From the NCBI GenBank assembly GCA_964016885.1, contig OZ024741.1:121706001-121770000 (forward strand): a stretch of 64,000 nucleotides of DNA, written 5' to 3'. Origin of the DNA: Eledone cirrhosa (Eukaryota). Position numbers and translations under genes: made by a program. Numbering within the stretch: the first letter of the stretch is position 1; the number at the start of each line of letters is the position of its first letter. Of the stretch, positions 1-55,810 are shown piece by piece. The notes under the pieces were generated by a model. The model saw only the letters and a program-made list of their open reading frames with translations. It was not told the DNA's origin and made no database searches.

Positions 1-214
1 GGTAGCTTATGAATTAAGTAACTACGTTATAAAGATTAAAGTCAACTTCGAGCTCGGAGGCTCATCGGAATGGTGTTTGTTTCGGTGTCCTTAGCGTGAA
101 GCGATTAAAAGTACAAGACTGCTCTCTGGAAATGATGCCAATCCATCACACGGGAAAACCCAACCCCTGCTTTTGCTGATACTCATTTTCACCTGAATAT
201 ACTGAAGCAACAAA

Positions 215-300
215 AAAGGAAGTATTTTGCTCAAGAACACAGCACACAACCCGATACAGGAATTGAACCCGGGACAATTATGATCGCAAGTCAATCACCC
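215..300 (-). mobile_element. tRNA-derived SINE head fragment (family 2)
   Basis: Reverse complement contains the B-box GGGTTCAATTCC and the 'ttcttgagcaa' segment shared with the SINEs at 44262 and 54437. Confidence 0.55.
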
Positions 301-302
301 TT

Positions 303-480
303 ACAACTTTCTTTCTTTACAAATCTAAGTTTAGGCATACTTTGGTCTAGGCAGCTTGGTATATATCTTGTAGATCCAACAGCAATATGTATGAAATTTA
401 AACTGTATTTAGGGTACTGGATCTGTTAACTCCTTATTAAGGGTCCGTAGATATATTCGTTCTCTTGTATTTTTCTGGGT
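303..480 (-). pseudogene. R4/Dong-type RLE retrotransposon C-terminal fragment
   Basis: Manual translation EYIYGPLIRS*QIQYPKYSLNFIHIAVGSTRYIPSCLDQSM matches DIYGPLVRSLQIQYRRYTFSFIPIIIGATGYIPTHLDQSM of ORF 13227-13736. Confidence 0.75.
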
Positions 481-542
481 CGGCTGCTGACGTTTCAAAC
501 TGTGGACCCCATCAAATTTGAAGAGAGTGCTCGAACAATAGA

Positions 543-575
<33 letters not shown>

Positions 576-734
576 CACACACACGTGTGTGTGTGTGCGT
601 GTAAGTGAGTAGAGTAGCGTGTGTGTGTGTTTGTTGTATGTATGAGTGTTGCTGTGTGCGCGCATATGTATGCGTGTGTGTGTATGTCGTACGTATAGGT
701 GTCAATAAGTGATTTTTTTTTTTTTTTTTTTTTT

Positions 735-1041
735 CTGCGCGGGGACATAGAAATAATCGGGCTGGATGCCCGATCGCGCAGTTAAACCACTGGGAGTGGA
801 GAACCCCTAGCCCTTGTCAGGGTATTCTTCTAGGAGAAGGCATCTCAGGAAACTGGGTTAACTCCGATATAAAACCTGCGGCTCAATAGTTACCGATGAT
901 GTTGATCTTTTCTTCTTTTCGGGTTATAGCTACTGTCGCTCAGAGAGTGGGATTGGTTCAGTGCACAGTCTTTCCTCACTTTAAAAATATTCGTCACGCA
1001 CAGGCATTGCACGAGTGCATTAATAATTATTAATAGTGTAC

Positions 1042-1077
<36 letters not shown>

Positions 1078-4000
1078 TATTATTACTTTTTTTTTTTTTT
1101 TTTTCCAATTCAATAATGTTCCAGAACAATGTAAACGAGATAATTGCCAATTTGGGTTCTGGAACAAAATTTGGGTTCTGGCAATAAGGGCAGGGGCCCC
1201 AAGTTATCACAACCTGGGCCCGCCCGTCATCGTGCCATTGTAATAGAGCCAAACAGGGCATTTAGTCTTGGCTGCTGGAACGTACGGACGCTGCTTGACA
1301 GGGATTCTTTGGAGCGTCCTGAACGAAGGACCGCTCTTGTTGCAAAGGAGCTTCGACGTTACGATCTTGACATCGTGGCTTTGTCTGAGACGAGGTTAGC
1401 TGGAGATGGTCATCTTACGGAATTTTGTGGAGAATATACATTCTTCTGGAAAGGAAGAGATGAAGGAACCAGAAGAGAGGCTGGGGTAGGATTTGCTGTT
1501 AAGACTGTACTGGTGAATAAATTAGAAGAATTCCCAGTGGGGATTAGTGAGCGTCTTATGTCCATGAGAGTTCCGCTGGACAAGGGAAGATATGCTACCC
1601 TGGTGAGTGTGTATGCCCCAACTATGAATTCTGTCGATGAAGAAAAACTGTCCTTTTACCATGCCTTGAAAGGTGTTCTAAGAAATATCCCTCAGGCAGA
1701 CAAAGTCATCGTGCTTGGTGACTTTAATGCTAGAGTGGGTAGGGATTTTAACACATGGAATGTAATCGGAAGGCATGGGGTGGGAAAGTGTAACAGCAAT
1801 GGTATGCTCTTGCTGCAGATGTGTGAGGAGCTGGATCTGTGTGTTACCAACACCATGTTCCAACAAAAGAACAAATTCAAGACCACATGGATGCATCCTG
1901 CATCTAAGGAATGGCATCTTTTGGACTACGTCCTAGTCAGGATGCGTGACAGACAGGATGTGCAGTGTGTTCGTGTTCTTCGTGGAGCTGAGTGCTGGAC
2001 GGACCACCGCCTGGTACGCGCAAAAGTGAATCTAATCACCAAACGTAAAATCCGGGCTCCTGGTGTTACCCTGCCCAAAAGATTGAATGCTGCTCGTCTT
2101 AAGGATAAAAATGTGAAGAGGACATTGGAAGAAGAGATGCAGGCTGCAGATCTTGGTGAGGATTGGCCGACCCTTAAAAAGTCGGTTTATGATGTAGGCA
2201 GACGTGTTCTGGGATTGGTGCAGAGAAAACATCAGGACTGGTTTAATGAGAATGATGTGCATATAGAAGACTTGTTGGCTGATAAGAGGCGTGCTCTGTC
2301 ACGCTACTTGACGGCAAAACCACAGGAGAGGAATACGTTGCATGAGGAGCTCAGGGATGTAAAATCACGTGTTAGGCGGAGTCTTTCTCAGATGAAGGAT
2401 CAGTGGTGGAGTGAGAAGGCTGGTGAGATACAAACTGCGTCTGATTGCAATAACACAAAGCTGTTGTACAGTCTTTTGCGTGAGGTTTATGGACCGTCTT
2501 CTTCTCTGGTGACACCGATTCGCAGCAAGGATGGCAAAGAACTTCTTCGTGACTCACAGGGAATTCTACGAAGGGGGCGAGAGCACTTTGATGATCTTTT
2601 GAATCAGCCGTCTGTCGTCAGTGAAGATTTCCTCAATCTCATTCCGGAAAGTCCTGTGAAAGTAGCTCTCGCAGAACCTCCGACACTTGTGGAGGTTGCA
2701 GTGGCTATTTCGAAGCTGAACAGTGGAAGATCTGCAGGTATGGATGGCATACATGCTGAGCTCCTACAATATGGTGGTGAGAGACTCCTGCAACATCTTC
2801 ACTCTCTGTTTGGAAGGATATGGGCTAATGAATCCGTGCCTGAGGACTGGAGAGATGCAGTAATGGTTGTCTTGTACAAGGGAAAGGGTAACAGGAATGA
2901 TTGTGGGAACTACAGAGGTATATCATTGCTTTCTGTCGTGGGGAAAGTTTTATGTAGGGTGCTTCAGGACCGTCTGCTGACACACATTGCAGATTGTGTC
3001 CTTCCTGAAAGTCAATCTGGTTTTCGTGTTGGACGCGGCACTACTGATATGATCTTCTCAGCTAGACAGCTCCAGGAGAAGTGCATTGAGCAGGGCTTGG
3101 ATCTGTATCAGGTTTTTGTCGATCTGACAAAGGCTTTCGATACTGTCAACAGAGATGCATTATGGAAGGTTCTCCAGAAACTTGGTTGCCCTGATAAGTT
3201 CCTTGCTTTAGTTAGGTCTTTCCATGACGACATGAAGGCTTGGGTTAATGTCGGAGGTAACATGTCGGAGCCTATCTCAGTAAAAAATGGAGTGAAACAG
3301 GGGGATATTCCAGCACCGACCCTGTTTGCCATATACTTTGCAATGGTTTTCTGTATTGCATTCAGGAATTGCGAGCATGGTGTTTACATCCGATATCGAA
3401 CCTCAGGCAGCATATTTAACATCAGGCGCTTTGCTGCGAAGACAAAAGTATTTACATCAGTCATAAGAGACCTCTTGTATGCAGATGATTGCGATCTTGT
3501 AGCGCACACAGAGAGTGATATGCAGCACATTTTGAATGTATTTTCTGACGCTTGCACTGCCCTGGGTTTGACTGTCAGTCTCAAGAAAACCGTGGTCATG
3601 TACCAACCTGCCCCTGGTAAGCAGTACACTGAACCAAACATCTATGTGTATGGCAAACGACTTGGAGTGGTTGATCAGTTTGTCTACCTGGGAAGCACTG
3701 TCAATCGATACGGCAACCTTGACAGTGAAATCTCACTTAGGATTAGGAAAGCAAGTGATGCTTTCGGAAAGCTAGAAAGGTGACTCTGGGGTCGGCGAGA
3801 CATATGCAGGAGGACAAAGGTAAAGGTGTACAGGGCATGTGTACTCTCTTGTCTTCTTTATGCCTGCGAGACCTGGGTCACATATCGACGCCACCTTAAG
3901 CAATTGGAGCGTTTCCATCAGATGTGTCTCAGACGGATCCATGGCGTTCACTGGAGGGACCACATCAGTGATGTCGAGATTTTGGAAAGCTCTATGTGTG

Positions 4001-4774
4001 ACAGTATAGAAGCTCTTGTGCTTAAGCAGCGACTCCGTTGGAGTGGTCACCTTGCCAGGATGAAGGATTCTAGAATACCAAAACAACTCTTCTATGGAGA
4101 GTTGGTTAAAGGAAAACGACCGCCACATAAACCAAAAAAGAGTTATAAGGATTCCTTGAAAGCCTCTCTGAAAGACGCTAACATCTCTGCTGATACATGG
4201 GAAAATATTGCTGCTGATCGTAATAAATGGAGAAAGACTGTATATGAGGGAAAAGTTGCCTTTGAGGCATCTCGAATCGCACACGAGAAAGTAAAGCGGG
4301 ACGTGAGGAAGGGCATTGCTGTTGCACTTCCAGACGGCGAGGGTCCTCCTATGGTTCTGACATGCAGCGTCTGTGCGAGACTCTGCCTAAGCAAAGCTGG
4401 ACTCGAAGGTCATCTTCGCAGTCATAAAGTAAGACCAGTGGTTGACTACCAGGCTGCTGTTGGAGATGCTACTCATCATGCTTGCCAAACATGTGGTAGA
4501 GAATGTAAATCAGCAGGAGGACTCAAGCGACATGCAAAAGTACACGAACTCCAACCACAGCCGACTATTCCCAGTGAATGTTTTGGTTGCCGACTCTGTG
4601 CAAGACATTTTAGATCATTGGCTGGGCTAAAAAGCCACATTCGATCGCAGCACTGTTAGTTGCTATCGTGTGTGTGTGTGTGTGTGTAGATATGCTTATG
4701 TGCGTGCGTGTGTGTGTATATATATATATGAATATGTATATTATTATTGTTGTTGTCGTTATTATTATTATTGC

Positions 4775-4835
<61 letters not shown>

Positions 4836-4941
4836 GTTATTAATGTATGTGTGTATATATGTGTGAGTGTATGTGTATGTATGTGTGTGTGTATATATGT
4901 ATGTATGTATATATATGTATGTGTGTGTGTATATATATATG

Positions 4942-4996
<55 letters not shown>

Positions 4997-5018
4997 TTTC
5001 CCTTTTTTTTTTTTTTAA

Positions 5019-5053
<35 letters not shown>

Positions 5054-5153
5054 TTTTTTTTTATTTTTTTTTATTTTTTATTTTATTTTATTTTTATTTT
5101 TATTTTTTTCTTGTGCAATGGCCATACTCGATAACGAGGGGGCAGCCATCATC
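735..5153 (+). mobile_element. Near full-length RTE-clade LINE (APE endonuclease + RT + three C2H2 zinc fingers)
   Basis: 5' UTR ~735-1115, single ORF, microsatellite-expanded 3' UTR, 3' stem-loop CTCG-ATAA-CGAG (5127-5138) and a (TATG)n tail. Confidence 0.93.
1116..4659 (+). pseudogene. RTE ORF (endonuclease-RT-3xC2H2) with two lesions
   Basis: APE motifs WNVRTL, LSETR, GDFNA and TDH; RT motifs QSGFR, DLTKAFD, GVKQG and YADD; three CxxC-x12-HxxxH(-like) fingers. ORFs 1144-3783 and 3826-4659 share a frame and are separated by one TGA at 3781 (TGC in the second copy). A 19-bp tandem duplication at 1149-1186 shifts the ORF out of frame with ATG 1116. Confidence 0.9.
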
Positions 5154-5184
5154 ATGTATGTATGTATGTATGTATGTATGTATG

Positions 5185-5213
<29 letters not shown>

Positions 5214-5215
<2 letters not shown>

Positions 5216-5660
5216 GGAGCTCTTAAGAGTCAATGGCCATCCAAAATCACCGGGAGAGATGAACCCTTAGCTTTTGTCAAGGCAGAATTCTAGGAGAAGG
5301 AAAACTCTGATATAACACCTGCAACCCTGATGGTATCCAATGATGTTGACTTGTTCTTCTTTTTGGTAAATATCATCTTGGTTAAGAGAGTGGGACTGGC
5401 TTTGTGCAGTGCCTTTGCTCACTATAAAAGCTTCACGGCACAGGCATTGCTTTATATCTGGAGATCTCTCTGCACTTGTCGTCACATGGTACCATGGGCC
5501 CAGCACTATGTGTCAATAATTGTCACAGGTGTAGTGTTTGTACCAGAGTTTTCAAGTCGCTGGCTGGACTAAAAAGTCACACTCGTTCAGCGCATCGGTA
5601 AGGGTTCTCCAACATGTATATAAAGTAGTGGCCGTACTCGAAAACGAGTTGGCAGCCACC
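5214..5660 (+). mobile_element. Non-autonomous RTE derivative (family B), 5'-truncated
   Basis: Near-identical to 12645-13080; RTE-like 5' UTR, last zinc-finger remnant and CTCG-AAAA-CGAG 3' hairpin; flanked by (TATG)n on both sides. Confidence 0.85.
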
Positions 5661-5740
5661 ATGTATGTATGTATGTATGTATGTATGTATGTATGTATGT
5701 ATGTATGTATGTATGTATGTATGTATGTATGTATGTATGT

Positions 5741-6017
5741 GAAGGGAGTGAAGGACCCCTAACCTTTGTCAGGGCATTCTTCTAGGAGAAGGCAACTCAG
5801 GAAACTGGGATAACTCCGATATAAAACCTGCGGCTCAGTAGTTACCGATAATGATGATCTTTTCTTTCTTTCGGGCTATAGCTACTGTCGGTCAGAGAGT
5901 GGGATTGGCTCTATGTACAGTCTTTCCTCACTTTAAAAAATATCTTCATGCATTGATAATTATTAATAATGGTATATTGTGCAATGGCCATACTCGATAA
6001 CGAAGGGGGCAGCCATC
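5741..6017 (+). mobile_element. Non-autonomous bipartite RTE derivative (family A)
   Basis: 5741-5975 matches the RTE 5' UTR (~792-1040) and is fused directly to the RTE 3' terminus 'ttgtgcaatggccatactcgataacg..gcagccatc'. Confidence 0.85.
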
Positions 6018-6028
6018 ATGTATGTATG

Positions 6029-8600
6029 TTCTTCTGGTTTTATAATTTCACAAATTTTTTCAGAATAGAGAGAGTCGGTTTCTAACATAGACACAAGACT
6101 CTCTCATTGGAATTTACACATCAACTAGGTAAATTATGTATGCATGTCTGCATGTGTAGATATGGATGTTATTGTATGTGTGGATGTGTATGTTTTGAGT
6201 TGTATGTGTGCATGTGTATATGCTTTGTATCTGTACATATGTATATGCAGTTATTAGATGCATAATTTTTGGAATGTTTTACATATTTTTACTGTTCCAT
6301 TAATGGATTGTACTTGTAATTTCCTAACTAGTTGTGTTCTTTCTGTTCCTGTGTAGCCTAGCTTCTCAAGATTTGTATTGAGGCAGTTACTAACATATCC
6401 CAGTGCCCCAATAATCACAGGCATAAATCTGAAGGTGTAATCAGGGTGGAGTATCTGCAGATTTCTCATCAGTTCTGCATAAATATTCTCCTTTTCGCTA
6501 ATCTTTGATATTATATTGGCATCTGCTGCGCAGCTAATTTCCACTACTGTGCATGCTTTCTTCTCCCTGTCCCATATCATAATATCTGGTCTGTTAGGCC
6601 TGCATTTTATTGGGGTTTTTACTGGAACATTCCACCAGTACTCTTTCATATTATGTACATGGATGTCTTCCACATTGCTGTAGCATTTAATGTGTCTATT
6701 ATCGGGGCTATCTTTTTTACGGATTGCATTGTACAGTGTTTTGGCCACTACATCATGCCTCATAGGTAGATAGTACCACGATGACATCTTTGGACAGCTG
6801 CTTATGACATGGGTGACATCTTCGATGTTAGTTCTGCAGAGTCTGCACTTGTTATCACATCTAGGTGTTTTTCCTGCATCCCTATCTTTTTTGTGAATCA
6901 GGTATTTCGTGTTAATTTCCTGTTCTTGGATTGCAAAAGCGTATCCTTCAAAGTGGGAGCCAATATAGCGGTTGTTGGTCCAAGATAGACTACTTTCCTT
7001 ATCTATATTACTCTCTATCTGGAGCTTCCTGGCAACATATCCTTGCATGATATTTTGCTGATAAGCATGCAGTTTTTCATCCATGGATTCACTGCGATAC
7101 TGCTGAGCGACTTCCCTGGGTGTGAGTTTTTGATTATCACACAGGGAATATCTCTCGAGAAGTTCCTTCCCAACTCTCGTGATCTTATCTGTTTCATGCA
7201 TATAGACTTGCCCGAGAGACGAGCCCCTACGCTTCGAGGTTCGTAGATGTTGTCGGAGGGATATGATGCGACATTCAAATGCTGTCTGGACTGATGTTAG
7301 GCCTCTGCCTCCCTGCTTACGTTTCAAGTAAAGGCGGTCTATGTCACTGTTGATGTGGAAGTTTCCGGTGTTGTTTAGTATATTTCGAGTTCCAACATCA
7401 GCTGCTCGGATTTCATCTATCGTCCAATTGAGTATTCCAAACGCTGGTGTTAGGCAGGCACAACAAATACATTGTGAGCCACTGTTTTGTTTTGCGCAGA
7501 GAGTTCCGATGACCAAATCTTTCTTAATCGGGTGTAGTATTCCCTGGTTACGCGTTCTTTATTACAGATACCATTATAGGATATGTTCTCATCTATCCCC
7601 AGGTATCTGTAGCAGTCCTCATCAGATATCGATGAAACAGTTAGGCCATTGATGACAATGTTGCTAGACTGGGTTGTTGTTTTTCCCCGCTTTACAATCA
7701 TGTATGAGCATTTATCTTGGCCAAACTCCATTGCTATATCCTTTGAGAATGTTGTAACCAGGTCAAGATTTTTCTTCATCCCATCCATGTTCTTGGCATA
7801 GAGTTTCAGATCATCCACAAAGAAATTATGAGTTAGGTTCGTATTCCTGACCTCCTGTGAGCCAATGATGTATCCTTCACATTTCTTGAGCAGAAAGGAC
7901 AAGGGGTTTAATGACAGGATGAATAATATCACAGAGAGACTGTCTCCCTGAAATATACTCCTGCGATATTTTATTTTATCAGTGAAAATAGAGTCCTCCC
8001 TCTCTGTCTTTAACCTTAGGATAGTAGCCCAAGAAGAAGACAGCTTCTCTATGGCTCTGATAATAATGTCTGGGACTTTAGCAAGTTAGAGGGCCTCTAT
8101 CATCCAAGAGTGGGGAACAGAATTGAAAGCTTTCCTGTAGTCCAGCCAGACTGTAGCCATATTCCTCCTAAGTTGTCGCACCTCCGACATTGCAGTTTTG
8201 TTGATTAGGAGTTGTTCAGCACATCCCCAAACCCATTTCTTTCCAGTTGCTTGTTCATCTGTGATGATGTTATTATTTTTCATAGTGATCTTGGAGGAAT
8301 AGGTTCAGGCAGGCTGTATACATCTTATACATCGGGTTCTGGCATGCAATGGATCGGTAGTTTTTTGCCAAGTGGGTGTCTTTGTTCTTGGGGACCAGTA
8401 ATGTTTGTGCTAATGTCAACCATTCTGGTATAAGTGTATCTCTCTTAAGAACTTGTTGGTAGAGGTCAGTAAGATACCTCCGATAGAATATCAGTTTTTT
8501 GTACCAGTAGCCGACAATCATGTCTCTTCCTGGCGTTTCCTATCACAGTCTCAAGGGTACCATCACTTATTTCGTATGTTTTTGTTGTAGTGTAGGAGCA
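6029..8600 (-). mobile_element. R4/Dong-type RLE non-LTR retrotransposon (family A), 5'-truncated and degenerate
   Basis: RT motifs WLDYRKAF and FFVDDLKLY, RLYLKRKQGGRGL, CCHC finger CRLC..HVISSC, RHD and RPD..VEISC nuclease motifs. Stops and frameshifts present; (TATG)n on both sides. Confidence 0.9.
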
Positions 8601-8620
8601 ATATGTATGTATGTATGTAT

Positions 8621-8682
8621 GTTTATCTCTTTCTCTTAATTTCGAGTACATTTTTTTTGACCGGCCACCTTCCTGGTGGCAA
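8621..8682 (-). mobile_element. ~60-bp 3'-end-only insertion of Dong family B
   Basis: Matches 13147-13204 (..gaccggccaccttcctggtggcaag); embedded in (TATG)n. Confidence 0.75.
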
Positions 8683-8758
8683 GTATGTATGTATGTATGT
8701 ATGTATGTATGTATGTATGTATGTATGTATGTATGTATGTATGTATGTATGTATGTAT

Positions 8759-10345
8759 TTTCTTCTGGTTTTATAATTTCACAATTTTTTGCCAATAGAG
8801 AGTCGGTTTCTAACATAGATACAAGACTCTCATTGGAATTTACACAACATCAACTAGGTAAATATGTCTGCATGTCTGCATGCATGTGTGCGCATGTATG
8901 GATGTTATATTGTATGTGTGGATGCGTATGTTTTGATTTGTATGTGTGCATATGCATATGCTTCGTATCTGTACAAGTGTATATGCAGTTATTAAATGCA
9001 TAATTTTTGGAATGTTTTACATATTTTTACTGTTCCATTATTGGATTGTACTTGTAATTTCCTAACTAGTTGTGTTCTTTCTGTTTCTGTGGAGCCTAGC
9101 TTCTCAAGATTTGTGTTGAAGCAGTTATCCTAGTGTCCCAATAATCACAGGCACAAATGTGAAGGTATAATCAGGGTGGTGTATTGTTAGATTTCTCATT
9201 AGATCTCCTTTTCGCTAATCTTTGATATTATATTGGCATCTTCTGGGCAGCTAACTTCCACTACTGTGTATGCCTTCCTTTCCTTGTCTCATATTATTAT
9301 ATCTGGTCTGTTATGCCTGTATTTTATTGGGTTTTTTACCGGGACATTCCACCAGTACTCTTTCATATTATCTATATGTGTGTATTCCACATTGTTGTAG
9401 CTTTTAATGTGTTTATTATCGGGGAGATTGCATTGTGCTGTGTTTTGGCTATTAAACCATGCCTCACAGGTGGATAGTATCGCTATGACATCTTTGGACA
9501 GCTGCTTATGACATGGGTGACATCTTCGATGTTAATTCTGCAGAGTCTGCATTTGTTGTCAGATCTAGGTGTTTTTCCTGCATCCCTATCTCTTTTGTGA
9601 ATCAGGTATTTCGTGTTAATTTCCTGTTCTTGGATTGCAAAAGCGTATCCTTCAAAGTGGGAGCCAATATAGCGGCTGTTGGTCCAAGATAGACTACTTT
9701 CCTTATCTATATTACTCTCACTCTGCAGCTTCCTGGCAACATATCCATGAATGATTTTTTGCTGATAAGCATGCAGTTTTTCATCCATGGATTCACTGCG
9801 ATACTGCTGAGCGACTTCCCTGGGTGTGAGTATTTGATTATCACACGGAATATCTCTCAAGGAGTTCCTTCCCAACTCTCATGGTGTTATCTGTTTCATG
9901 CAGATAGACTTGCTCGAGAGACGAGCTCCTACGCTTCGAGGTTCGTAGATGTTATCGGAGGGATATGATGCGACATTCAAATGCTGTCTGGACTGATGTT
10001 AGGCCACTGCCTCCCTGCTTACGTTTCAAGTAAAGGCGGTCTATGTCACTGTTGATGTGGAAGTTTCCGGTGTTGTTTAGTATTTTTCGAGTTCCAACAT
10101 CAGCTGCTCGGATTTCATCTATCGTCCAATTGAGTATTCCAAACGTTGGTGTTAGGACAGACACAGCAAATATATTATGAGCCAGTGTTTTGTTTTGTGC
10201 AGAGAGTTCCGATGACCAAATCTTTCTTAATCGGGTTACGCGTTCCTTATTACAGATACCATTATAGGATATGTTCTCATCTATCCCCAGGTATCTGTAG
10301 CAGTCCTCGTTGAAATACTTAGGCCATTAATGAAAATATGGTTCG
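8759..10345 (-). mobile_element. R4/Dong-type element family A, second copy, 5'-truncated
   Basis: Colinear with 6029-7660 including the same 3' end; ORF fragments 9483-9875 and 9952-10164. Confidence 0.9.
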
Positions 10346-10429
10346 TATGTATGTATGTATGTATGTATGTATGTATGTATGTATGTATGTATGTATGTAT
10401 GTATGTATGTATGTATGTATGTATGTATG

Positions 10430-12366
10430 TGGAAACAATAGGGGTATATCATTACTTTCTGTCGTAGGAAAACTTTATGTAGGGTGCTTCTGGACCGTCT
10501 GCTGACACATATTGCAGATTGTGTTCTCCCTGAAAGTCAATCTAGTTTTCGTGCTTGACACGGCACTACTGATATGATCTCAGCTAAACACCTCCAGGAG
10601 AAGTGCATGGAACAAGGTTTCGATCTGTATCAGGTTTTTGTCAATCTGACAAAAGCTTTCGATACTGTTAACAGAAATGCATTGTGGAAGGTTCTCCAGA
10701 AACTTGGTTGCCCTGATAAGTTCTTTGATTTGGTTAGGTCTTACCATGACGACATGAAGGCTTGGGTTAATGTCAGAGCTAATATGTCGGAGCCTATATA
10801 AGTGAAAGATGGAATGAAACAAGGGGGAGGGGGGTATTCCAGCACCGACCCTGTTTGCCATATACTTTGCAATGGTTTTCTATATTGCATTCTGGAATTG
10901 GAAGCATAGTGTTTACATCTACTATCAAACCTCTGGCAGCATATTTAACATCAGGCGCTTTGCTGCAAAAAACAAAAGTATTTACATCAATCAAAAGAGA
11001 CCTTGTATGCAGATGATTGTGATCTTGTAGCGCACACAGATTGATATGCAGTACATTTTGAATGCATTTTCTGATGTTTTCACTGCCCTAGGATTGACTG
11101 TTAGTCTCAAGAAAACCGTCGGCATGTACCAACCTGCCCCTAGTAAGCAGTACAGTGAACCAAATATCTATGTGTATGGTAAACGACTTGGAGTGGTTGA
11201 TCAGTTTGTCTACCTGGGATGCACTGTCAATCGATACAGCAATCTTGATAATGAAATTCCACTCAGGATTAGGAAAGCAAGTGATGCTTTCGGAAAACTA
11301 GAAAGGTGCCTCTGGGGTCGGCGAGACATATGTGAGAAGACAAAAGTAAAGGTGTACAAGGCATGTGTGCTCTCTTCTCTTCATTATGCCTGCAAGACCT
11401 TGGTCACAGATCGACACCGCCTTAAACAATTGGAGCGTTTCCATCACATGTGTCTCAGACGGATCCATGGCGTTCGGTGGAGGGACCACATCAATGATGT
11501 CGAGATTTTGGAAAGCTTTCGGTGTGAAAGTAGAGAAGCTCTTGTGCTTAAGCAAAGACTCCGATGGAGTGGTCACCTTGCCAGGATGAAAGATTCTAGA
11601 ATAGCGAAACAACTCTTTTATGGAGGGTTAGTTAAAGGATAACGACCTTCGCATAAACCAAAAAAGAAGTATAAGGATTCCTTGAAAGCCTCTTTGAAAG
11701 ACGCTAACATCTCTGCTGATGCATGGGAAAGCGTAGCTGCCGATCAGAATAAACGGAGAAAGACTGTACATGAGACGAAAGTTACTTTTGAAGCATCTCG
11801 AATCGCATACGAGAAAGTAAAGCGGGATGTGAGGAAAGGCATTACTGTTGTGTTTCCTGACAGCGAAGGTCCTCCTATGGCGCTGATATGCAGCGTCTGT
11901 GCGAGACTCTGCCCCAGCAAAGCTGGACTCGAAAGTCATCTTCGCTGTCATAAAGTGAGACCAGTGGTTGACTACCAGGCTGCTGTCGAAGACGCTGCTA
12001 ATCATACCTGTCAAGCATTTGGAAGAGAGAGTAGATCAGCAGGAGGGCTCAAATAACATGCAAAAGTACATGAAATCCAACCACAGCCGGCTGTTGCCAG
12101 TGAGTGTTTTGGTTGCCAACTCTGTGCAAGACATTTTAGATCATTGGCTGGGCTAAAAAGCTAGATTCGATCGCAGCACCGTTAATTGTTAATATATGTG
12201 TGTATATGTATGTGTGTGGGTATGTATGTGTGTGTATGTATATGTATGTATATATGTGTGTGTGAGTATATATGTATACATATATGTGTGTGTGTATATA
12301 TATGCATGTGTGTGTGTATGTGTGTATATGTATGTGTATATATGTATATGTATGTGTGTATATATG

Positions 12367-12398
<32 letters not shown>

Positions 12399-12462
12399 CT
12401 ATTATCATTATTTATTTATTTTTTCGTGCAATGGCCATACTCGATAACGAGGGGGTAGCCAT
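10430..12462 (+). mobile_element. RTE LINE second copy, 5'-truncated and degenerate
   Basis: Colinear with ~2905-5153; same zinc-finger region and 3' hairpin; (TATG)n on both sides. Confidence 0.92.
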
Positions 12463-12495
12463 CATGCATGTATGTATGTATGTATGTATGTATGT

Positions 12496-13080
12496 TGGTG
12501 CTACTGGTAACATGTATCCCAGTACAACCTGTCTCATGGTCGGGACGTTGGCGACTAAACTGGCAACCCCACCAAGGTTTCTTGGTGAGGAGGGTGACTT
12601 TGAACATCCTGCAGGACTAAAAACAAAACCTGTCAAAGGGCAAAGGAGCTCTTAAGAGTCAATGGCCATCCAAAATCACTGGGGAGAGATGACCCCTTAG
12701 CCTTTGTCAAGGCAGAATTCTAGGAGAAGGAATAACACCTGCAACCCTGATGGTATCCAATGATGTTGACTTGTTCTTCTTTTTGGTAAATATCATCTTG
12801 GTTAAGAGAGTGGGACTGGCTTTGTGCAGTGCCTTTGCTCACTACAAAAGCTTCACGGCACAGGCATTGCTTTATATCTGGAGATCTCTCTGCACTTGTC
12901 GTCACATGGTACCATGGGCCCAGCACTATGTGTCAATAATTGTCACAGGTGTAGTGTTTGTACCAGAATTTTCAAGTCGCTGGCTGGACTAAAAAGTCAC
13001 ACTCGTTCAGCGCATCGGTAGGGGTTCTCCTACATGGATATAAAGTAGTGGCCGTACTCGAAAACGAGTTGGCAGCCATC
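12496..13080 (+). mobile_element. Non-autonomous RTE derivative (family B), apparently full length (~585 bp)
   Basis: RTE-type 5' region, retained finger CSVCTRIFKSLAGLKSHTRSAH (ORF 12824-13021), 3' hairpin and (TATG)n flanks. Confidence 0.85.
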
Positions 13081-13146
13081 ATGTATGTATGTATGTATGT
13101 ATGTATGTATGTATGTATGTATGTATGTATGTATGTATGTATGTAT

Positions 13147-13970
13147 GTTCTCTCTTTCTCTTATTTTCGAGTATATTTTTGACCGGCCACCTTCCTGGTG
13201 GCAAGGTTGTAAAAGAAAAGAAATTGTCATCCCTTGAATCGCAAGAATGTTTTGCAAATTTTTAAGGTGCCAGCTGTCGCAGCCATTTGTAGACTATGAA
13301 TTAGGGAGCTGCACTCTTTCTCCACAAATCCAAGTTCAGTCATACTTTGGTCCAAGTGGGTTGGTATATAACCTGTAGCTCCAATAATGATGGGTATGAA
13401 GCTGAAGGTGTATCTTCGATACTGGATCTGCAAACTCCTCACCAATGGTCCGTAGATGTCCTTCTCCTGTTTTTTTCTTACAACGTTGACATCAAGCGAG
13501 CAGCTGATCTCTACAACAAAGTACATTTTCAATATGTGGTCCCAAACAACAATATCAGGCCGGTTGTGCTTTAATTTGGTGCCAGTTTTTATTTTCATGT
13601 TCCAACAATATTCTTTAGTGCCATCTATTTCAACATATTCCTCCTCATTTGTTTTTAATTTTGTTTTCCTAAGTGTGCTCCAGATGGTTCTAGCTGTCAC
13701 ATCATGTCTCATAGGGCGGTAGTAGCGAGATGTCAATCTTTCGCAGTTGGCAACAATGTAGCTAACATCTTCGATCTTTGTTTTACATAGCCTACATTTA
13801 TTGTCGACCGATGGCCCTCCTGTATTGCATAGATATATCCTTCAATGTGGGATTTCATAAACTTGTCAGAACTCCATGCCAGGCTTTTTGAATGATTTAT
13901 CCCCTCTATGGTCTGTCTTTTTCGTCTCAAGTATTCATGCACAATTTCCTTTGTAAATTGGTCCATTTTT
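13147..13970 (-). mobile_element. R4/Dong-type element family B, 5'-truncated
   Basis: ORF 13227-13736 with RHD, HNRPDIVVWD and VEISC; distinct 3' UTR; flanked by (TATG)n. Confidence 0.88.
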
Positions 13971-14137
13971 TATGTATGTATGTATGTATGTATGTATGTA
14001 TGTATGTATGTATGTATGTATGTATGTATGTATGTATGTATGTATGTATGTATGTATGTATGTGTATGCATGCATACATGTTTGTCTGACTGTAGGTATG
14101 TATACATACACATATACACATACATATATAATATATA

Positions 14138-14193
<56 letters not shown>

Positions 14194-14316
14194 GGAGGTG
14201 AGTTTTATTGTAGTACAATAAAGCAATGCAGATATCGGATAAGAAGCACTCTACAGTTTGTAGGACTGGAGTATACATAATATATAAGATCAAAAGATGG
14301 TTAAATGAGTTCCATG

Positions 14317-14387
14317 TATTTTATTATGCGCATTTCAAAAACAAATATCATCATGCAATAATATTTGTGTTTTCATCAGATAAAATA
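14317..14387 (-). ncRNA. Type I hammerhead ribozyme (mirror copy)
   Basis: Exact reverse complement of 14446-14516. Confidence 0.85.
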
Positions 14388-14445
14388 GGAGGACATGATA
14401 TGAAGGTTAAAAACACTTGTTTTTAACCTTCATATCATGTCCTCC

Positions 14446-14516
14446 TATTTTATCTGATGAAAACACAAATATTATTGCATGATGATATTTGTTTTTGAAA
14501 TGCGCATAATAAAATA
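14446..14516 (+). ncRNA. Type I hammerhead ribozyme
   Basis: UAUUUUAU-CUGAUGA-[~16-bp stem II]-GAAA-U-GCGC-AUA^-AUAAAAUA; perfect 8-bp stem I and palindromic stem III AUGCGCAU. Confidence 0.88.
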
Positions 14517-14544
14517 CATGGAACTCATTTAACCATCTTTTGAT

Positions 14545-14577
<33 letters not shown>

Positions 14578-14579
<2 letters not shown>

Positions 14580-16705
14580 GTAGAACACTGGAAGGTAATA
14601 TCCGTAGTGTTAGAACACTCAGTCCATGGGACGAGTTAGGTAGAAGTGGTTACACAACAGTTAGTTCACCATACCGAGAACAATTGTTTCACCTTAGCGG
14701 ATCCTCAGCTCGTAATGGACATGGTTATACGGAACAGGAAGGACAACCGTACGAACGCGCATGCGCAGAAACCGTCACTTCACACAGGCAATACTAAAAA
14801 GCGCGCGAGAGGTGTAAGGGAGATAACTGCGAAAGTCCGAAAAGTTTCTAGTTGATAAGAAAATTAGGATGTTGTTGTGATTCAATCCGGCGCTTTGTAG
14901 TTATGTAAGAGGTGTTTCGAGACGTTTGGGCAACGTGTGAAGAATTCATTTCTCGTATTTAGGCAATCACTATTGCATAATCTCTTTAGAATATTTATTT
15001 GTTCATCAATACATAGTCCACACGACGCATTTCCCCTTGCGTAAGGCTTGGACTTAGTGATGGCTTTCCATTGAATGGAGTAGTCTATACTTGAGTCCTT
15101 GAGGGACCATACGCGGCTCGCGAGTTTCGTGGATGAACGTCTGTCCGGGTACCTAAAGATCGACTGGTGGTTCAGGAAGCGTTCCTTAAATCGGCCTTCC
15201 ACCATACCCACATAGGATTTGACCTCCTGTGGTTGATTTGGTCGGTTGGAAGTGACCACAGCTTCATAAATTACAGCAGGTGTATTGCATTGCTGTTGAA
15301 GGGGACAAGCTTCGGGCTTACGGCAAGAGCACCCTGGTGGGTGTTGCTCTTAGGGCTGTAGGTGATGTGGGCCTTCATGTTCTTAGCGCAGGAGTATCCT
15401 AGTTTTACTTTGTGTCGGTTAAAGATGGAGCGGTATTTATGACCTATGGGAAAGTGTCTATCTAAGAGGGCTAGACATTTTTTTCCTACATTGGTTTTAA
15501 CGTTGAGTGAGCAGGGAGGAGAGAACCAGATAGTTTGTCTATTGTTACGCTTTCTTTTCTTATAGCTGTTGTTGATAGTGGGAGAGTAAGTAATAGGTTG
15601 TGAGAAGCCGCTGTTAGCTAACGCCGTGTTATAGTAGGGTGCCGCCCTGTCAAAGATAGCCTTATTAGAGGAGAGGTTTGAGATTCTAGTACTGATATTA
15701 TTTACGAAGTTTCTAAAAACAGTGGGAGGGTGGAATGAGTCCTTGTGAATGTAATTGAGTTTTTCGTTTAGCTTATGGAAGGATCTGTAGGTGTGTGTGC
15801 GAAGGTCTAAATTAATGTCTAAGAAATCTACTCTAGAGAGTTTGGTAGTTACTATTATCCTAAGTCCTAACTCATTGAAGGTAGAAGTTAAGTCTTTTTT
15901 AAACCTGTCGAGGTCGTGACCACTTTATGGCTCGATAAGGTCAGTCCGTCGCCGCGGTATATTCCCGTGTGGAAGTCCGGGAATCTAACACGTAATGTAT
16001 CTAAAATAAATAGGCCAACCAAGTCGCATACGTCAGCACTGTCAAACGATCCCATGCAGACGTCGAATAGGTCTGAAGTTGTTGACTTCTTTGCCCAGGC
16101 TACTCCGTCGTTGAAGAGGAGGGTTTTCCGGCAGTGAGCGATGATTTCCCTGTCTAAACCATCGACGGTGGTGTAAGTGGTAGCGAAGTCCAACGCTTTG
16201 TTTAACATGTTCTCTGAGATCGACGGGTAAAAATCAATGTCGAACTGTGTGAACTTCGCTTTTTTGGATTTGAAGGAGTTGAACCACTTAATTACGGAGT
16301 CGCTGTTCTCCCACTGGGACAGGTTGGACTTGGTCCTAATGGTCATAACTATGTTTCTAAGTATGGCCTTACTGATTAGTCCCATATCTGTGCGTGCCGG
16401 GTTTATTAGTCTAGAGATTGTAGCTTCTTATCTACCTTAAGGGCGGCGGCAAGTTCTTTGGCTTCTGTATTAATGTCGTCGTAGGCCATAGGGTTAGCTT
16501 TCTTATATTTGGAAGTAATAGCGTTATAGGCCAGATGGCGGAAAGTGGTGTTGTCGACTTCGTAAATATTATTAGTTTTGTCGGAAAGAACCAAAGTGTT
16601 ATTAGAAGACCTACATTTTTTAATATCATTTCTAAATTTAGTTTGAAAAGTGTTAGGATGTTTGCGAAAGGAAATGTTAGCGACTAAGTCAAGAAGGTCC
16701 ACCAA
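14578..16705 (-). mobile_element. Penelope-like element (Hydra-clade-like), degenerate
   Basis: RT motifs QFDI-DFYPSI, MGSFDSADVCDLVG and IYRGDGL; linker CSCRKPEACPLQQQC; GIY-YIG VIY..YVG..RF.NH, CGLC.DE, LNTRNE; 3' pLTR region with a hammerhead, ending at (TA)n. Confidence 0.88.
14675..14712 (-). ncRNA. Minimal type I hammerhead in the PLE 3' pLTR
   Basis: CGAG-CUGAGGA-UCC GCUAA GGU-GAAAC-AAUU-GUU^-CUCG. Confidence 0.75.
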
Positions 16706-16719
16706 CTCGCGGTTGAGTG

Positions 16720-16768
16720 AATGTCACTGCTGAAGCATTAACGAATCTTGAAACAGCTGTCTGTCATT
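16720..16768 (+). ncRNA. Degenerate type I hammerhead
   Basis: AAUGUCA-CUGcUGA-..-GAAAC-AGCU-GUC^-UGUCAUU; one core mismatch and an imperfect stem II. Confidence 0.55.
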
Positions 16769-16923
16769 TTCAACGGCTTCTGAGAGATATGTGACATGTT
16801 CACAGAGCAAAAGGAAGACAAATAATTTGTTCATGCTGAAAAATATTATTTTTCTTAAATAACGAAGATCTCATGTTTATTGCATATAAACATGTAGTCT
16901 ATGTGTACATACAACCCTATTAT

Positions 16924-16961
<38 letters not shown>

Positions 16962-19528: not shown

Positions 19529-19604
19529 GTAAGTTGATAGTCTTATGTTGTATATGCTATTCTGGTTGTAATTGTTGTTGTGATCATTATGGTTGTTGTT
19601 ATAA

Positions 19605-19748
19605 AGAGTTACGGCCCTTTATGGTCTGAGTTCAAATCCTGCCGATGTTAACTTTGCTTTTCATCCTTACAGGGTCGATAAAATAAAGTACCAGTAATAC
19701 ACTAGAATATATATTGCTGGCCTTGTGCCAACAGTAGAAACAATTATT
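19605..19748 (+). mobile_element. tRNA-derived SINE family 1, 5'-truncated, at the left edge of the giant satellite
   Basis: gagttcaaatcc B-box and 'ctttcatccttac.gggtcgataaaataaagtaccag...agtagaaacaattatt' as in 37015-37402. Confidence 0.85.
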
Positions 19749-21756: not shown

Positions 21757-21823
<67 letters not shown>

Positions 21824-32280: not shown

Positions 32281-32314
<34 letters not shown>

Positions 32315-33074
32315 GGTTATTGTTGTTGTTATTGTTGTTGTGGTTATCGTTGTTGTGGTTATTGTTGTTGTTGTTATTGTTGTTGTTGTTATTGTTGTTG
32401 TGGTTATTTTTGTTGTGGTTATTGTTATCGTAGTTATTTTTGGTGTGGTTATTATTGTTGTTGTTGTTGTGGTTATTTTTCTTGTGGTTATTTTTGTGGT
32501 TATTTTTATTGTTGTGGCTATTGTTGCTGTTGTTGTTGCTATTGTTGTTGTAGTTATTGTTTTTGTGGTTATTGTTGTTGTGGTTATGGTTGTTGTTATT
32601 GTTGCTTTTGTTTTTGTTGTGTTTATTGTTGTTGTGGTTATTGTTGTTGTGGTTATTGTTGTTGTGGTTATGATTGTTGTGGTTATTGTTGTTGTAGTTA
32701 TTGTTGTTGTGGTTATTGTTGTTGTGGTTATTGTTGTTGTGGTTACTGTTGTTGTGGTTATTGTTGTTGTAGTTATTGTTATTGCGGTTATTGTTATTGC
32801 TGTTGTTGTTGTTGTTATTGTTGTTGTGGTTATTGTTGTTGTAGTTATTGTTGTTGTGGTTATTGTTGTTGTGGTTATTGTTGTTGTGGTTATTGTTTTT
32901 GTGCTTATTGTTTTTGTAGTTATTGTTATTGTGGTTATTGTTGTTGTGGTTATTGTTGTTGTGGTTATTGCTGTTGTGGTTAATGCTGTTGTGGTTATTG
33001 TTGTTGTGGTTATTGTTGTTGTGGTTATTGTTGTTGTGGTTAATGGTGTTGTGGTTATTTTTGTTGTGGTTATG

Positions 33075-33106
<32 letters not shown>

Positions 33107-33537: not shown

Positions 33538-33569
<32 letters not shown>

Positions 33570-44235: not shown

Positions 44236-44261
44236 GGACTATATTTATATATATATATTGT

Positions 44262-44476: not shown

Positions 44477-44477
44477 C

Positions 44478-54707: not shown

Positions 54708-55566
54708 TCCTTGAGTCTCAGTCATTGATGTTAGTTAACTGGAAAGTCCGTTGGAATGAATATCAAGCCACTACCTGCAGCCTCAGATATTCAGGACGTA
54801 TCGGAGGATTCTTGCTGTTCCCAGCAAGCATGCCTTTTGAAGCGTTCCAAAAAGCGTGAAGGGGCCGATTTTCTTTAACCATCCCTGGAAACTTTTGGAG
54901 ATAGTCCCCAGTGCGCCTATGACAATCGGGATCACTTTGACTTCATGGCAGTTCCAAATCCTTTTTACCTCCCACTTTAAGTCCTGGTATCAGTTAATTT
55001 TCTCCCTCTCCTTCTCTTGCACTCTCGTGTCGAATGGGCAGGCCACATCCACAATCAGACACGATCTTTTTTCTTTGTCCACAACCACCAGGTCAGGTCT
55101 ATTGTGTTCCAGTTTCTTGTCCGTCTGTATCCTAAAATCCCACAGCACCTTCACCTGATCGTTTTCTATCACCGACTCTGGCTTATGCTCATACCACTTC
55201 TCTTATGCTCATACCACATTCCTTCTGTAGCCTTTTTAAGGTCTCCTCTTCTCAACCAGTTCTGTGGATCTCTAAATTCAGTTTTCTCAAAGAAGGTACT
55301 ATGAAGGGATTTATCCTGAAGGCTGCTCTTTCTCCTTGATGTTATTTCCTCCTTGGAGATCCCCTGGCCTATTGTCCCCTCCTTCAGTACAGTTCTGAAC
55401 ATTGGCTCCTTACTATCAGTCACGTTATTGTGTAGGTTGTTATTCTCCATCTGAACACAGTCCTCTATGCTGATAAGACCTCTTCCACCTTCAGATCTCC
55501 TTAAGTAGAGTCTATCGACATTACTCCTCTTGTGGAACATGTTGTAGATAGTCAATAGCTTCCTAG
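54708..55566 (-). mobile_element. Dong/R4-type element (third family), 5'-truncated and internally deleted, in (TAA)n
   Basis: VDRLYLRRSEGGRGL, WDFRIQTD and HNRPDLVVVD..IVDVACPFD; (ATT)n on both flanks, the established Dong target. Confidence 0.88.
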
Positions 55567-55810
55567 AATTATTATTATTATTATTATTATTATTGGCGAC
55601 CTGCGTAGTAAATCGTATCATCGTGAGCTCCACAAAGGTTTGTTATTTTCAGTTGTTTAAAATTGCCATTTATGGAACATTTTTATAGTTAACTGTATAT
55701 AAGTGCACATACATTGATTTCTGAAAAGGATACTCAAAAATATTGGGGCCTTGAGCCCAAAATTTAAACTTTTTATAATTATCAAACAAAACAAACTTCT
55801 TTGAACAATC

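What the first reader, a model, noticed from the sequence alone, without database searches (positions are those of the whole stretch)
303..14070. Polarised retroelement 'ecosystem' on a (TATG)n microsatellite: RTEs on +, two Dong families on -
Seen: ten insertions in 14 kb, nearly all delimited by (TATG)n. All five RTE or RTE-derived copies face + and end in (TATG)n. All five R4/Dong pieces face -, including a 60-bp 3'-only insertion. Established: Dong/R4 elements are microsatellite-specific (classically (TAA)n, as at 54708), and RTE tails are short tandem repeats. Inference: RTE tails create or extend (TATG)n, which is then targeted by the RTE itself, by its parasites and by Dong families retargeted to (TACA)n. 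This would be a self-amplifying safe-harbour nest shared by APE- and RLE-type elements.
Basis: partly seen in the sequence, partly recalled or inferred. Interest (0 to 1): 0.72.

Follow-up and report, generated by a model that had tools for sequence, protein, structure and literature searches.

The report
Retrotransposons sharing one microsatellite target
Ten copies of two unrelated kinds of jumping gene have piled up, one after another, in a single short DNA repeat (TATG), each kind always facing its own way, which suggests that both seek out this repeat and use opposite strands of it.

Summary
Ten non-LTR retroelement pieces lie in 303-14063, and 18 of their 20 ends abut (TATG)n. Five RTE-type copies face +; five R4/Dong-type pieces face -. 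Segmental duplication is unlikely: copy pairs differ by 2.1%, 6.9% and 10.5%, have different 5' ends, and the RTE pair shows purifying selection (dN/dS 0.37) and unequal decay. All 5 Dong-type 5' junctions sit directly on the repeat in a compatible phase, so these are sequence-specific (ACAT)n insertions. The two families form a branch apart (100/100) from the (TAA)n-flanked Dong at 54.7 kb. Four of 4 resolvable RTE-type 5' junctions also end at ATGT, although RTEs are reported as non-specific; template jumping remains a partial rival. The polarity is no separate phenomenon: it follows from strand-specific priming on an asymmetric repeat. That RTE tails created the array is not supported; that they extend it is plausible. 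The direction of 'retargeting' is unshown. No host genome was available, so this rests on one locus. Verdict: a new variant of known microsatellite targeting; I found no ACAT-targeting Dong or microsatellite-specific RTE in the literature I could search.

The parts
303..545 (-). Decayed R4/Dong-type relic (RLE region), DongB-like; 3' end lost, 5' side abuts (CATA)n
   Evidence: 75% nt to 13315-13478; tblastn hits from DongA/DongB proteins; distal part 477-545 aligns to DongB with 9 of 1000 shuffles as good
546..575 (+). (TATG)7 array; not preceded by any RTE 3' end in the window
576..735 (+). GT-rich simple sequence plus poly-T; either the start of the RTE1 5' UTR or host microsatellite (unresolved)
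   Evidence: sequence; no other copy in the window
736..5153 (+). RTE1, near-intact RTE LINE: 5' UTR with a hairpin at 736-782, one ORF 1144-4659 (AP endonuclease, RT, three C2H2 fingers) with one in-frame stop at 3781-3783, microsatellite-rich 3' UTR
   Evidence: Pfam; 1549 relatives among 8000 candidates scored, best 66%; 1 stop and no frameshift against P0020; hairpin z -3.8
5154..5213 (+). (ATGT)15 array: RTE1 tail and 5' flank of SINE-A1
5214..5660 (+). SINE-A1: 5'-truncated bipartite non-autonomous element from a second RTE family (5' UTR piece plus zinc-finger remnant and 3' end)
   Evidence: 9 mismatches in 437 aligned bases to SINE-A2; 69% to the RTE1 5' UTR; 41% aa to the RTE1 C-terminus
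5661..5740 (+). (ATGT)20 array
5741..6017 (+). SINE-B: internally deleted, non-autonomous derivative of the RTE1 family (5' UTR piece joined to the 3' end)
   Evidence: 89% to 792-1000 and 93% to 5111-5165
6018..6029 (+). (ATGT)3: SINE-B tail and 3' flank of DongA1
6030..8601 (-). DongA1: 5'-truncated R4/Dong-type LINE (RT, CCHC knuckle, RHD, RPD..E..K restriction-like endonuclease); 2 frameshifts, 1 stop
   Evidence: Pfam RVT_1; profile best hits are R2 proteins, E 3e-58; model pLDDT 85.9 matches R2 structures, E 8.5e-11, TM 0.60-0.66; motifs; lesions
8602..8622 (+). (TATG)5 array between the DongA1 5' end and the 60-bp piece
8623..8682 (-). 60-bp 3'-only insertion of the DongB family; truncated 2 nt past a 3' UTR hairpin
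   Evidence: 53 of 56 bases match 13149-13205; hairpin z -4.3
8683..8758 (+). (GTAT)19 array
8759..10344 (-). DongA2: more strongly 5'-truncated and decayed copy of the DongA family
   Evidence: 109 mismatches in 1571 aligned bases to DongA1; 5 stops and 5 indels in the region compared; homology runs up to the array
10345..10430 (+). (GTAT)21 array between two 5' ends (DongA2 and RTE2, head to head): tail of neither neighbour
10431..12463 (+). RTE2: 5'-truncated, decayed copy of the RTE1 family
   Evidence: 184 mismatches in 1747 aligned bases, dN/dS 0.37; 74 private amino-acid changes against 20 for RTE1
12464..12495 (+). ATGC(ATGT)7 array: RTE2 tail and 5' flank of SINE-A2
12496..13080 (+). 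SINE-A2: longer copy of SINE-A (147 more 5' bases)
13081..13148 (+). (ATGT)17 array
13149..13970 (-). DongB: 5'-truncated copy of a second family, 44% aa identical to DongA over the endonuclease region
13971..14063 (+). (TATG)23 array on the DongB 5' side, grading into a degenerate TG/TA microsatellite to 14190
54709..55567 (-). Internal control: 5'-truncated, internally deleted (TAA)n-type Dong flanked by (TTA)n 54689-54708 and (ATT)9 55568-55594
   Evidence: separate branch from DongA/B

Best explanation
A pre-existing (TATG)n microsatellite was hit repeatedly, at different times, by target-primed reverse transcription from two unrelated machines. (1) Two families of an R4/Dong-type lineage cut it sequence-specifically. 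The restriction-like endonuclease nicks the TATG strand at ATGT^ATGT, the freed 3' end primes cDNA, and every copy therefore reads (ACAT)n on both sides and faces -. This is the same T^A step as ATT^ATT in the TAA-type Dong. (2) An RTE family and RTE-mobilised bipartite SINEs, whose RNA ends in (AUGU)n, prime from a nick on the opposite, CATA strand that can pair with that tail, so every copy faces + and its 5' junction ends at ATGT. Each event splits the array and leaves repeat on both sides; RTE-type events also add tail units, so the number of targets grows and the nest lengthens. Shown: anatomy, junction phases, independence of the duplicated pairs, enzyme classes, tree split. Inferred: nick positions, tail-target pairing, endonuclease specificity, self-amplification.
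For: Dong-type: 5 of 5 5' junctions abut (CATA)n at five different truncation points; three end at CATA and two at CATAC, where the C is also the element's own base. A 5' flank cannot be the element's tail. Of 4 surviving 3' junctions, 3 read element|ACAT and the fourth fits with one substitution. The TAA control shows the same two-sided pattern with its own repeat. RTE-type: 4 of 4 resolvable 5' junctions end at ATGT; RTE2's upstream array faces a Dong 5' end. Independence: divergences 2.1% (CI 1.1-3.9), 6.9% (5.8-8.3) and 10.5% (9.2-12.1); RTE pair dN/dS 0.37, p 1.8e-9; private amino-acid changes 74 vs 20, p 1.8e-8. By my arithmetic RTE2 carries about 6% own change (0.79 x pN 0.076), more than SINE-A2 can (at most 3.9%), so A2 entered RTE2's tail later. 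Tail-target pairing for RTEs is a published model (PMC6007223, passages).
Against: One locus, picked because it looked like this; no copy of these families lies elsewhere in the window to serve as a control. Three of the 4 RTE-type 5' arrays are tails of another RTE-type element, as template jumping would also give, and RTE1 and SINE-A1 are of similar age (about 1-2%). RTE1's own 5' end is unresolved. DongA1 and DongA2 show no significant selection signal (dN/dS 0.73, p 0.27) and symmetric private changes (23 vs 27), so a local duplication of DongA followed by deletion is not excluded by sequence alone. Two RTE-type 5' junctions carry microhomology (1 nt for SINE-A1, 3 nt for RTE2), which blurs the phase. 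RTEs are described as not sequence-specific, with animal 3' microhomology of only 1-2 bases (PMC2887409, PMC1291365, PMC6007223, passages).
Confidence: 0.7

Rival explanations
1. Only the Dong-type families are targeted. The RTE-type chain arose by template jumping or read-through co-mobilisation (head-to-tail concatemers joined by their own tails), and the Dongs later cut into those tails.
For: With the Dongs removed, all five RTE-type copies form one head-to-tail chain, and each upstream array could be the previous element's tail. RTE1 and SINE-A1 have compatible ages. Published RTEs are non-specific (PMC2887409, PMC1291365).
Against: RTE2 is far more decayed than RTE1 (74 vs 20 private changes) and than SINE-A2 just 3' of it, so the chain is not one event. 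At least two RTE-type insertions had to find an existing array on their own. The array at 546-575 has no RTE 3' end before it.
Confidence: 0.17
2. RTE insertion here is only a soft preference: a promiscuous AP endonuclease nicks widely and priming succeeds best where the tail pairs, so most genomic copies lie outside microsatellites and this nest is an extreme case. (This overlaps with the best explanation on mechanism and differs on strength.)
For: This is the published general model for RTE, CR1 and L2 tails (PMC6007223). One chosen locus cannot measure strength.
Against: 4 of 4 resolvable 5' junctions lie in pure arrays in one phase, while such arrays cover 15 of 49,930 bp elsewhere in the window, and no RTE1-family copy lies there.
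Confidence: 0.3
3. The cluster grew mainly by segmental or tandem duplication (unequal exchange between arrays) of an RTE+SINE block and a Dong block.
For: RTE followed by SINE-A occurs twice and DongA occurs twice. DongA1/A2 show no significant purifying selection and symmetric change.
Against: The three pairs have non-overlapping divergence intervals, every pair has different 5' ends that abut the array cleanly, and the RTE pair differs by selected, asymmetric change.
Confidence: 0.07
4. One reading: RTE tails create the (TATG)n arrays de novo, and the Dong families evolved to exploit those tails.
For: All five RTE-type copies end in (ATGT)n; four Dong 3' ends sit in arrays that follow an RTE-type 3' end directly or through other Dongs. 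RTEs are known to generate microsatellite families (PMC2887409).
Against: The most decayed piece is a Dong relic whose flanking array has no RTE end before it; the right flank is an ordinary compound microsatellite; the DongA/B lineage has many relatives at 35-64% identity, one named from the cnidarian Hydractinia, so it is old and not a local offshoot.
Confidence: 0.12

Closest known systems
Dong (Bombyx mori), DongAg, DongBg; R4/Dong clade
   Same: RT plus restriction-like endonuclease, no N-terminal zinc fingers in full-length relatives, insertion into a microsatellite with repeat on both sides; first nick inferred at a T^A step. Clade description from PMC7998251 and PMC3812793 (passages).
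   Different: The target is (ACAT)n/(TATG)n, not (TAA)n, which PMC7998251 gives for most insects, molluscs and cnidarians. DongA/B are 31% identical to the window's TAA-type Dong and lie on another branch (100/100).
Waldo (WaldoAg1/2, WaldoFs1; R1 clade)
   Same: Sequence-specific insertion into ACAY microsatellites, which include ACAT (PMC3812793, passage).
   Different: Waldo is an APE-type R1-clade element. Here the same repeat is used by an RLE-type lineage and, on the opposite strand, by an RTE.
RTE-2_OV of Octopus vulgaris and RTE/Bov-B LINEs generally
   Same: Single ORF with endonuclease, RT and C2H2 finger; 3' UTR made mostly of microsatellite (PMC9115989, passages); short tandem-repeat tail.
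   Different: No target specificity was seen in the passages read. RTE1 could not be compared with RTE-2_OV by sequence.
RTE-related SINEs with tail-guided insertion (AfroSINE, Au-like SINEs; Nishiyama and Ohshima 2018)
   Same: The 3' tandem repeat of the RNA is proposed to steer cleavage or priming by pairing with the target (PMC6007223, passages).
   Different: There the effect is 1-2 bases of microhomology and a T-stretch signature at otherwise unique sites; here whole pure arrays flank the 5' ends. SINE-A/B have no tRNA head and consist of RTE 5' and 3' parts only.
Togen ((TG)n), Kibi ((TC)n), Koshi ((TTC)n), Mino ((AC)n), some HERO families
   Same: Microsatellite-specific non-LTR elements, described as a strategy to avoid genes (PMC4640811, PMC3812793, passages).
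   Different: Other clades and other repeat units; I saw no report of two enzyme classes stacked with opposite polarity in one array.

Membership tests
RLE-type non-LTR retrotransposon (R2 group) | RT followed by CCHC knuckle and PD-(D/E)xK restriction-like endonuclease | tested here: met
   Pfam RVT_1; CCHC, RHD and RPD..E..K..Y motifs in DongA1; profile best hits R2 proteins; top 7 fold matches are all R2 structures. A single-sequence search of solved structures found nothing meaningful.
R4/Dong clade | No N-terminal zinc-finger motifs | tested here: met
   0 of 13 full-length relatives have a C2H2-like motif in the first 380 aa. Tested on relatives, since the window copies lack the N-terminus.
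R4/Dong clade | RT phylogeny groups the element with named R4, Dong and Rex6 references | not testable with these tools
   No named reference elements were retrieved. The tree uses the CCHC-RLE region of unnamed relatives plus one Haematobia protein, without a root. Assignment to R4/Dong and not HERO/NeSL also rests on recalled RT motifs.
R4/Dong clade | Site-specific insertion into rDNA or a microsatellite | tested here: met
   5 of 5 5' junctions and 4 of 4 surviving 3' junctions lie on (ACAT)n in a compatible phase; one locus only.
R4/Dong clade | Diverged N-terminal SANT/Myb-like domain (PMC7998251) | not tested
   Window copies are 5'-truncated; no profile-profile library was available.
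Dong in the strict sense (TAA-specific lineage) | (TAA)n target | tested here: not met
   DongA/B and the relic are flanked by (ACAT)n; only the 54.7 kb copy has (TAA)n.
Dong in the strict sense (TAA-specific lineage) | Groups with TAA-type Dongs | tested here: not met
   DongA1 and DongB sit together in a 100/99 set, across a 100/100 branch from the TAA-flanked copy and the insect protein. The two sets of relatives were gathered by separate queries.
R4 (nematode rDNA element) | 13-bp target site duplication (PMC6895275) | tested here: inconclusive
   ACAT-type junction phases imply a length of 1 modulo 4, which 13 satisfies, but so do 1, 5, 9 and 17; the TAA control gives 0 modulo 3, which 13 does not satisfy (my arithmetic).
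RTE clade LINE | Single ORF with AP endonuclease and RT | tested here: met
   ORF 1144-4659 with Exo_endo_phos and RVT_1, plus C2H2 fingers.
RTE clade LINE | 3' end in short tandem repeats | tested here: met
   5 of 5 RTE-type copies end in (ATGT)n.
RTE clade LINE | RT phylogeny with named RTE references | not tested
   No tree was built. Of the 120 relatives listed, one carried an organism name (Branchiostoma, uncharacterized). The clade name rests on architecture and its match to the description of RTE-2_OV.
RTE clade LINE | Non-specific insertion with visible 6-12 bp target duplications (PMC2887409) | tested here: not met
   4 of 4 resolvable 5' junctions are in (TATG)n; duplications are hidden in the repeat. 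This is a usual trait, not a phylogenetic criterion.
RTE and Dong 5' HDV-like ribozyme (PMC3774820) | HDV-like double pseudoknot at the 5' end | tested here: inconclusive
   A strict descriptor found 0 hits in three 5' regions and Rfam gave no ribozyme match in 1-16000; the true 5' end of RTE1 is uncertain and the descriptor was my own.
tRNA-derived SINE (for SINE-A and SINE-B) | tRNA-like head with Pol III boxes | tested here: not met
   Their 5' parts match the RTE 5' UTR; ARAGORN found 0 tRNA genes in the window. They are internally deleted, bipartite RTE derivatives.

The most novel reading that the evidence does not exclude
This RTE family and its bipartite derivatives are a strictly microsatellite-specific RTE lineage, steered by the RNA's own (AUGU)n tail, and DongA/B represent an old, widespread marine-invertebrate branch of the R4 group with an (ACAT)n target. 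The two enzyme classes use opposite strands of the same repeat and together lengthen it genome-wide.
Probability: 0.4. Interest if true: 0.68.

Novelty: new variant of a known kind. Interest (0 to 1): 0.5.

Why it matters
RTEs are treated as non-specific inserters. A family whose target is set by its own RNA tail would turn the tail-pairing model into a direct test: swap the tail and see whether the target follows. A TAA-type and an ACAT-type restriction-like endonuclease in one genome, with the same inferred T^A cut and a one-base difference in repeat unit, is a natural pair for finding what sets RLE target choice, a question that matters for R2-based gene insertion tools. If general, such nests would also help explain where the abundant RTE and Dong-R4 copies of cephalopod genomes sit, and why flanks of tetranucleotide markers are often repetitive. 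If the RTE effect is only a soft bias, what remains is one more microsatellite target for a clade already known to use them.

Tried and rejected
Segmental duplication as the main cause: rejected for the RTE+SINE block, not excluded for DongA alone. Assembly artefact: rejected, because the copies differ by 2-10% and have distinct junctions. RNA genes: Rfam matches in 1-16000 were all below gathering score and mostly microRNA models matching microsatellite; no tRNA genes. HDV-like ribozyme search: negative. Single-sequence search of solved structures with DongA1: nothing meaningful; the profile search worked. A first tree gathered with DongA alone (DongA2 left out as frameshifted) was biased in sampling and was redone with TAA-type relatives (31 chosen DongA-query relatives of 103, and the 34 of 150 TAA-query relatives that covered at least 120 aa). 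The 13-bp duplication idea fits the ACAT families but not the TAA control. The shrimp paper PMC3124438 was irrelevant (Dong occurred only within an author name). Fell et al. 2025 was not held under the DOI I tried. No eukaryotic genome collection was available, so no flanks outside this window were seen.

Full report
Observation. The region 303-14063 holds ten retroelement pieces separated by ten (TATG)n runs. In order: a Dong-type relic (303-545, -), RTE1 (736-5153, +), SINE-A1 (5214-5660, +), SINE-B (5741-6017, +), DongA1 (6030-8601, -), a 60-bp DongB 3' end (8623-8682, -), DongA2 (8759-10344, -), RTE2 (10431-12463, +), SINE-A2 (12496-13080, +) and DongB (13149-13970, -). Eighteen of the 20 ends abut (TATG)n; the relic has lost its 3' end and RTE1's 5' end is uncertain. 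Runs of three or more units cover 570 bp of 1-14070 and 15 of the remaining 49,930 bp. Perfect segregation of orientation has probability 0.002 for independent events.

What the pieces are. RTE1 has one ORF (1144-4659, one in-frame stop) with AP endonuclease, RT and C2H2 fingers and a microsatellite-rich 3' UTR, as described for RTE-2_OV of Octopus vulgaris (PMC9115989, passages). SINE-B is a deletion derivative of that family (89% to its 5' UTR). SINE-A comes from a second RTE family (69-77% nt; zinc-finger remnant 41% aa). DongA1 encodes RT, a CCHC knuckle and a restriction-like endonuclease. A profile of it with 20 other rows hits R2 proteins best (E 3e-58), and its model (pLDDT 85.9) matches R2 structures in all 7 fold hits below E 0.001. 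None of 13 full-length relatives has an N-terminal zinc finger, which fits the R4/Dong description in PMC7998251 (passages). The closest named relative is an Octopus bimaculoides protein at 59%. A cephalopod host is likely but not shown.

Independent insertions, not a duplication. The three repeated pairs differ by 2.1% (9 of 437), 6.9% (109 of 1571) and 10.5% (184 of 1747), with non-overlapping intervals. RTE1 and RTE2 differ with dN/dS 0.37 (p 1.8e-9), so part of their divergence arose in active lineages. RTE2 holds 74 private amino-acid changes against 20 for RTE1, with 7 unresolved (p 1.8e-8). Each pair has different 5' ends. Against this, DongA1 and DongA2 give dN/dS 0.73 (p 0.27) and 23 vs 27 private changes, with 15 unresolved, so sequence alone does not exclude a local DongA duplication; their different, clean 5' junctions argue against it.

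Dong-type targeting. The 5' flank is the informative side, since an element cannot supply it as a tail. All five Dong-type 5' junctions, at five different truncation points, abut (CATA)n. Three end at CATA; two end at CATAC, where the C is also the element's next base. Three of the four surviving 3' junctions read element|ACAT and the fourth fits with one substitution. The control at 54709-55567 has (AAT)n on both sides. Under target-primed reverse transcription (established mechanism) this places the first nick on the TATG strand at ATGT^ATGT, and at ATT^ATT for the TAA type (inference). In a tree of the CCHC-endonuclease region (69 rows, 191 columns), DongA1 and DongB share a 100/99 set, and a 100/100 branch separates them from the TAA-flanked copy and the one insect protein. 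The two sets of relatives were gathered by separate queries, the tree is unrooted, and the relatives' targets are unknown. So the ACAT type is a distinct branch, but 'retargeted from TAA' is not shown.

RTE-type targeting. All four resolvable 5' junctions end at ATGT; by simple arithmetic, four in one of four phases has chance about 1 in 64 before allowing for microhomology, which is present at two of them. If RTE1 begins at 576, it fits the same phase. The main rival is template jumping or co-mobilisation: three of the four upstream arrays are tails of another RTE-type element. Ages limit this rival. RTE2 carries about 6% own change by my arithmetic, while SINE-A2 directly 3' of it can carry at most 3.9%, so these two were not one event. 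RTE1 and SINE-A1 could have been. RTEs are described as non-specific (PMC2887409; PMC1291365), with tail-target pairing proposed to bias cleavage or priming by only 1-2 bases in animals (PMC6007223). The pattern here looks like a strong form of that model, with priming from the CATA strand.

Polarity and self-amplification. TATG is asymmetric. An element primed from the TATG strand must face -, and one primed from the CATA strand must face +. The polarity is thus a consequence of targeting and not a further finding. Each insertion leaves repeat on both sides, so targets multiply, and RTE tails add units (inference). Creation of the array by RTE tails is not needed: the array at 546-575 borders the most decayed Dong relic with no RTE 3' end to its left in the window, and the right end grades into a compound microsatellite.

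Comparison with print. Microsatellite targeting is known: Dong on TAA, Waldo on ACAY, Mino, Kibi, Koshi (PMC3812793), Togen and some HERO families (PMC4640811). PMC7998251 gives (TAA)n as the Dong target in most insects, molluscs and cnidarians. RTE and Dong-R4 are abundant and recently active in Octopus (PMC13282606, parts 1-2 of 3 read; PMC8967140, passages), and I saw no target analysis in what I read. Ten searches gave no ACAT-targeting R4/Dong and no microsatellite-specific RTE. In one search, 30 of 163 papers were listed, none with 'TACA', 'ACAT' or 'TATG repeats'; and one search returned none. I also saw passages only of PMC3774820, PMC13580325, PMC3124438, PMC5035012, PMC8869645 and PMC6895275. 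Not seen: Kojima and Fujiwara 2004, Volff 2001, Fell 2025, Repbase entries, the Zenodo library of PMC13282606, and supplementary files 5-8 of PMC9115989 (searched the other files). Any of these could already record an ACAT-type Dong.

Verdict. The feature is real and best read as a nest built by two targeting systems on opposite strands of one microsatellite. Specificity of the Dong-type families is well supported within the window. Strict specificity of the RTE family is likely but rests on four junctions at one chosen locus. This is a new variant of a known kind, with interest 0.5; a genome-wide flank count would settle it.

Noticed in passing
window 1-302 (-); similar 44260-44510, 54435-54682, about 40250-40330: tRNA-SINE-like dispersed repeat with a B-box-like motif; the copy at 1-302 stands where the Dong relic's 3' end should be (weak matches; SINE label from recall).
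   Followed up: partly
window 19768-34236: A 14.5-kb array of a 15-bp TTG/TTA-based unit, about 990 copies, 82% matches, with extreme strand skew.
   Followed up: no
window 14272-14562: A 291-bp near-perfect palindrome (98%) between (TA)n runs just right of the nest; could be biological or an assembly fold-back.
   Followed up: no
window 14577-16930 (-) and 48056-52540: Penelope-like RT and GIY-YIG-like reading frames (label from recalled motifs; no Pfam hit at E 0.01) with (TA)n runs at or near their ends, the second group in nested inverted copies. Suggests a third element class using a third microsatellite.
   Followed up: partly
window 56352-61205 (+), tail 61453-61494: Two-ORF L1/Tx1-like LINE (AP endonuclease, RT, zf-RVT) ending in (ATT)n; its 5' part begins about 0.5 kb from the TAA-type Dong.
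   Followed up: no
window 8623-8682 and 13185-13205 (-): The 60-bp DongB insertion stops 2 nt past a strong 3' UTR hairpin (z -4.3 and -3.2), as if reverse transcription ended just after the stem.
   Followed up: partly
window 4660-5110 and 12186-12420: The RTE 3' UTR is itself a series of GT, TA, TTA and T-rich repeats, shared in order but not in length between the two copies.
   Followed up: partly
window 736-782 (+): Stable hairpin at the apparent start of the RTE1 5' UTR (z -3.8, 0 of 200 shuffles as good); no ribozyme match found.
   Followed up: partly
window 19600-19750, 35090-35930, 37020-37405, 42710-42890, 46645-46835: A short dispersed repeat of about 140-190 bp in many copies on both strands, SINE-like.
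   Followed up: no
window 63275-63787 (+) and 62944-63316: A reading frame resembling a hAT-type transposase fragment (from recall; no Pfam hit at E 0.01) next to a short tandem array.
   Followed up: no
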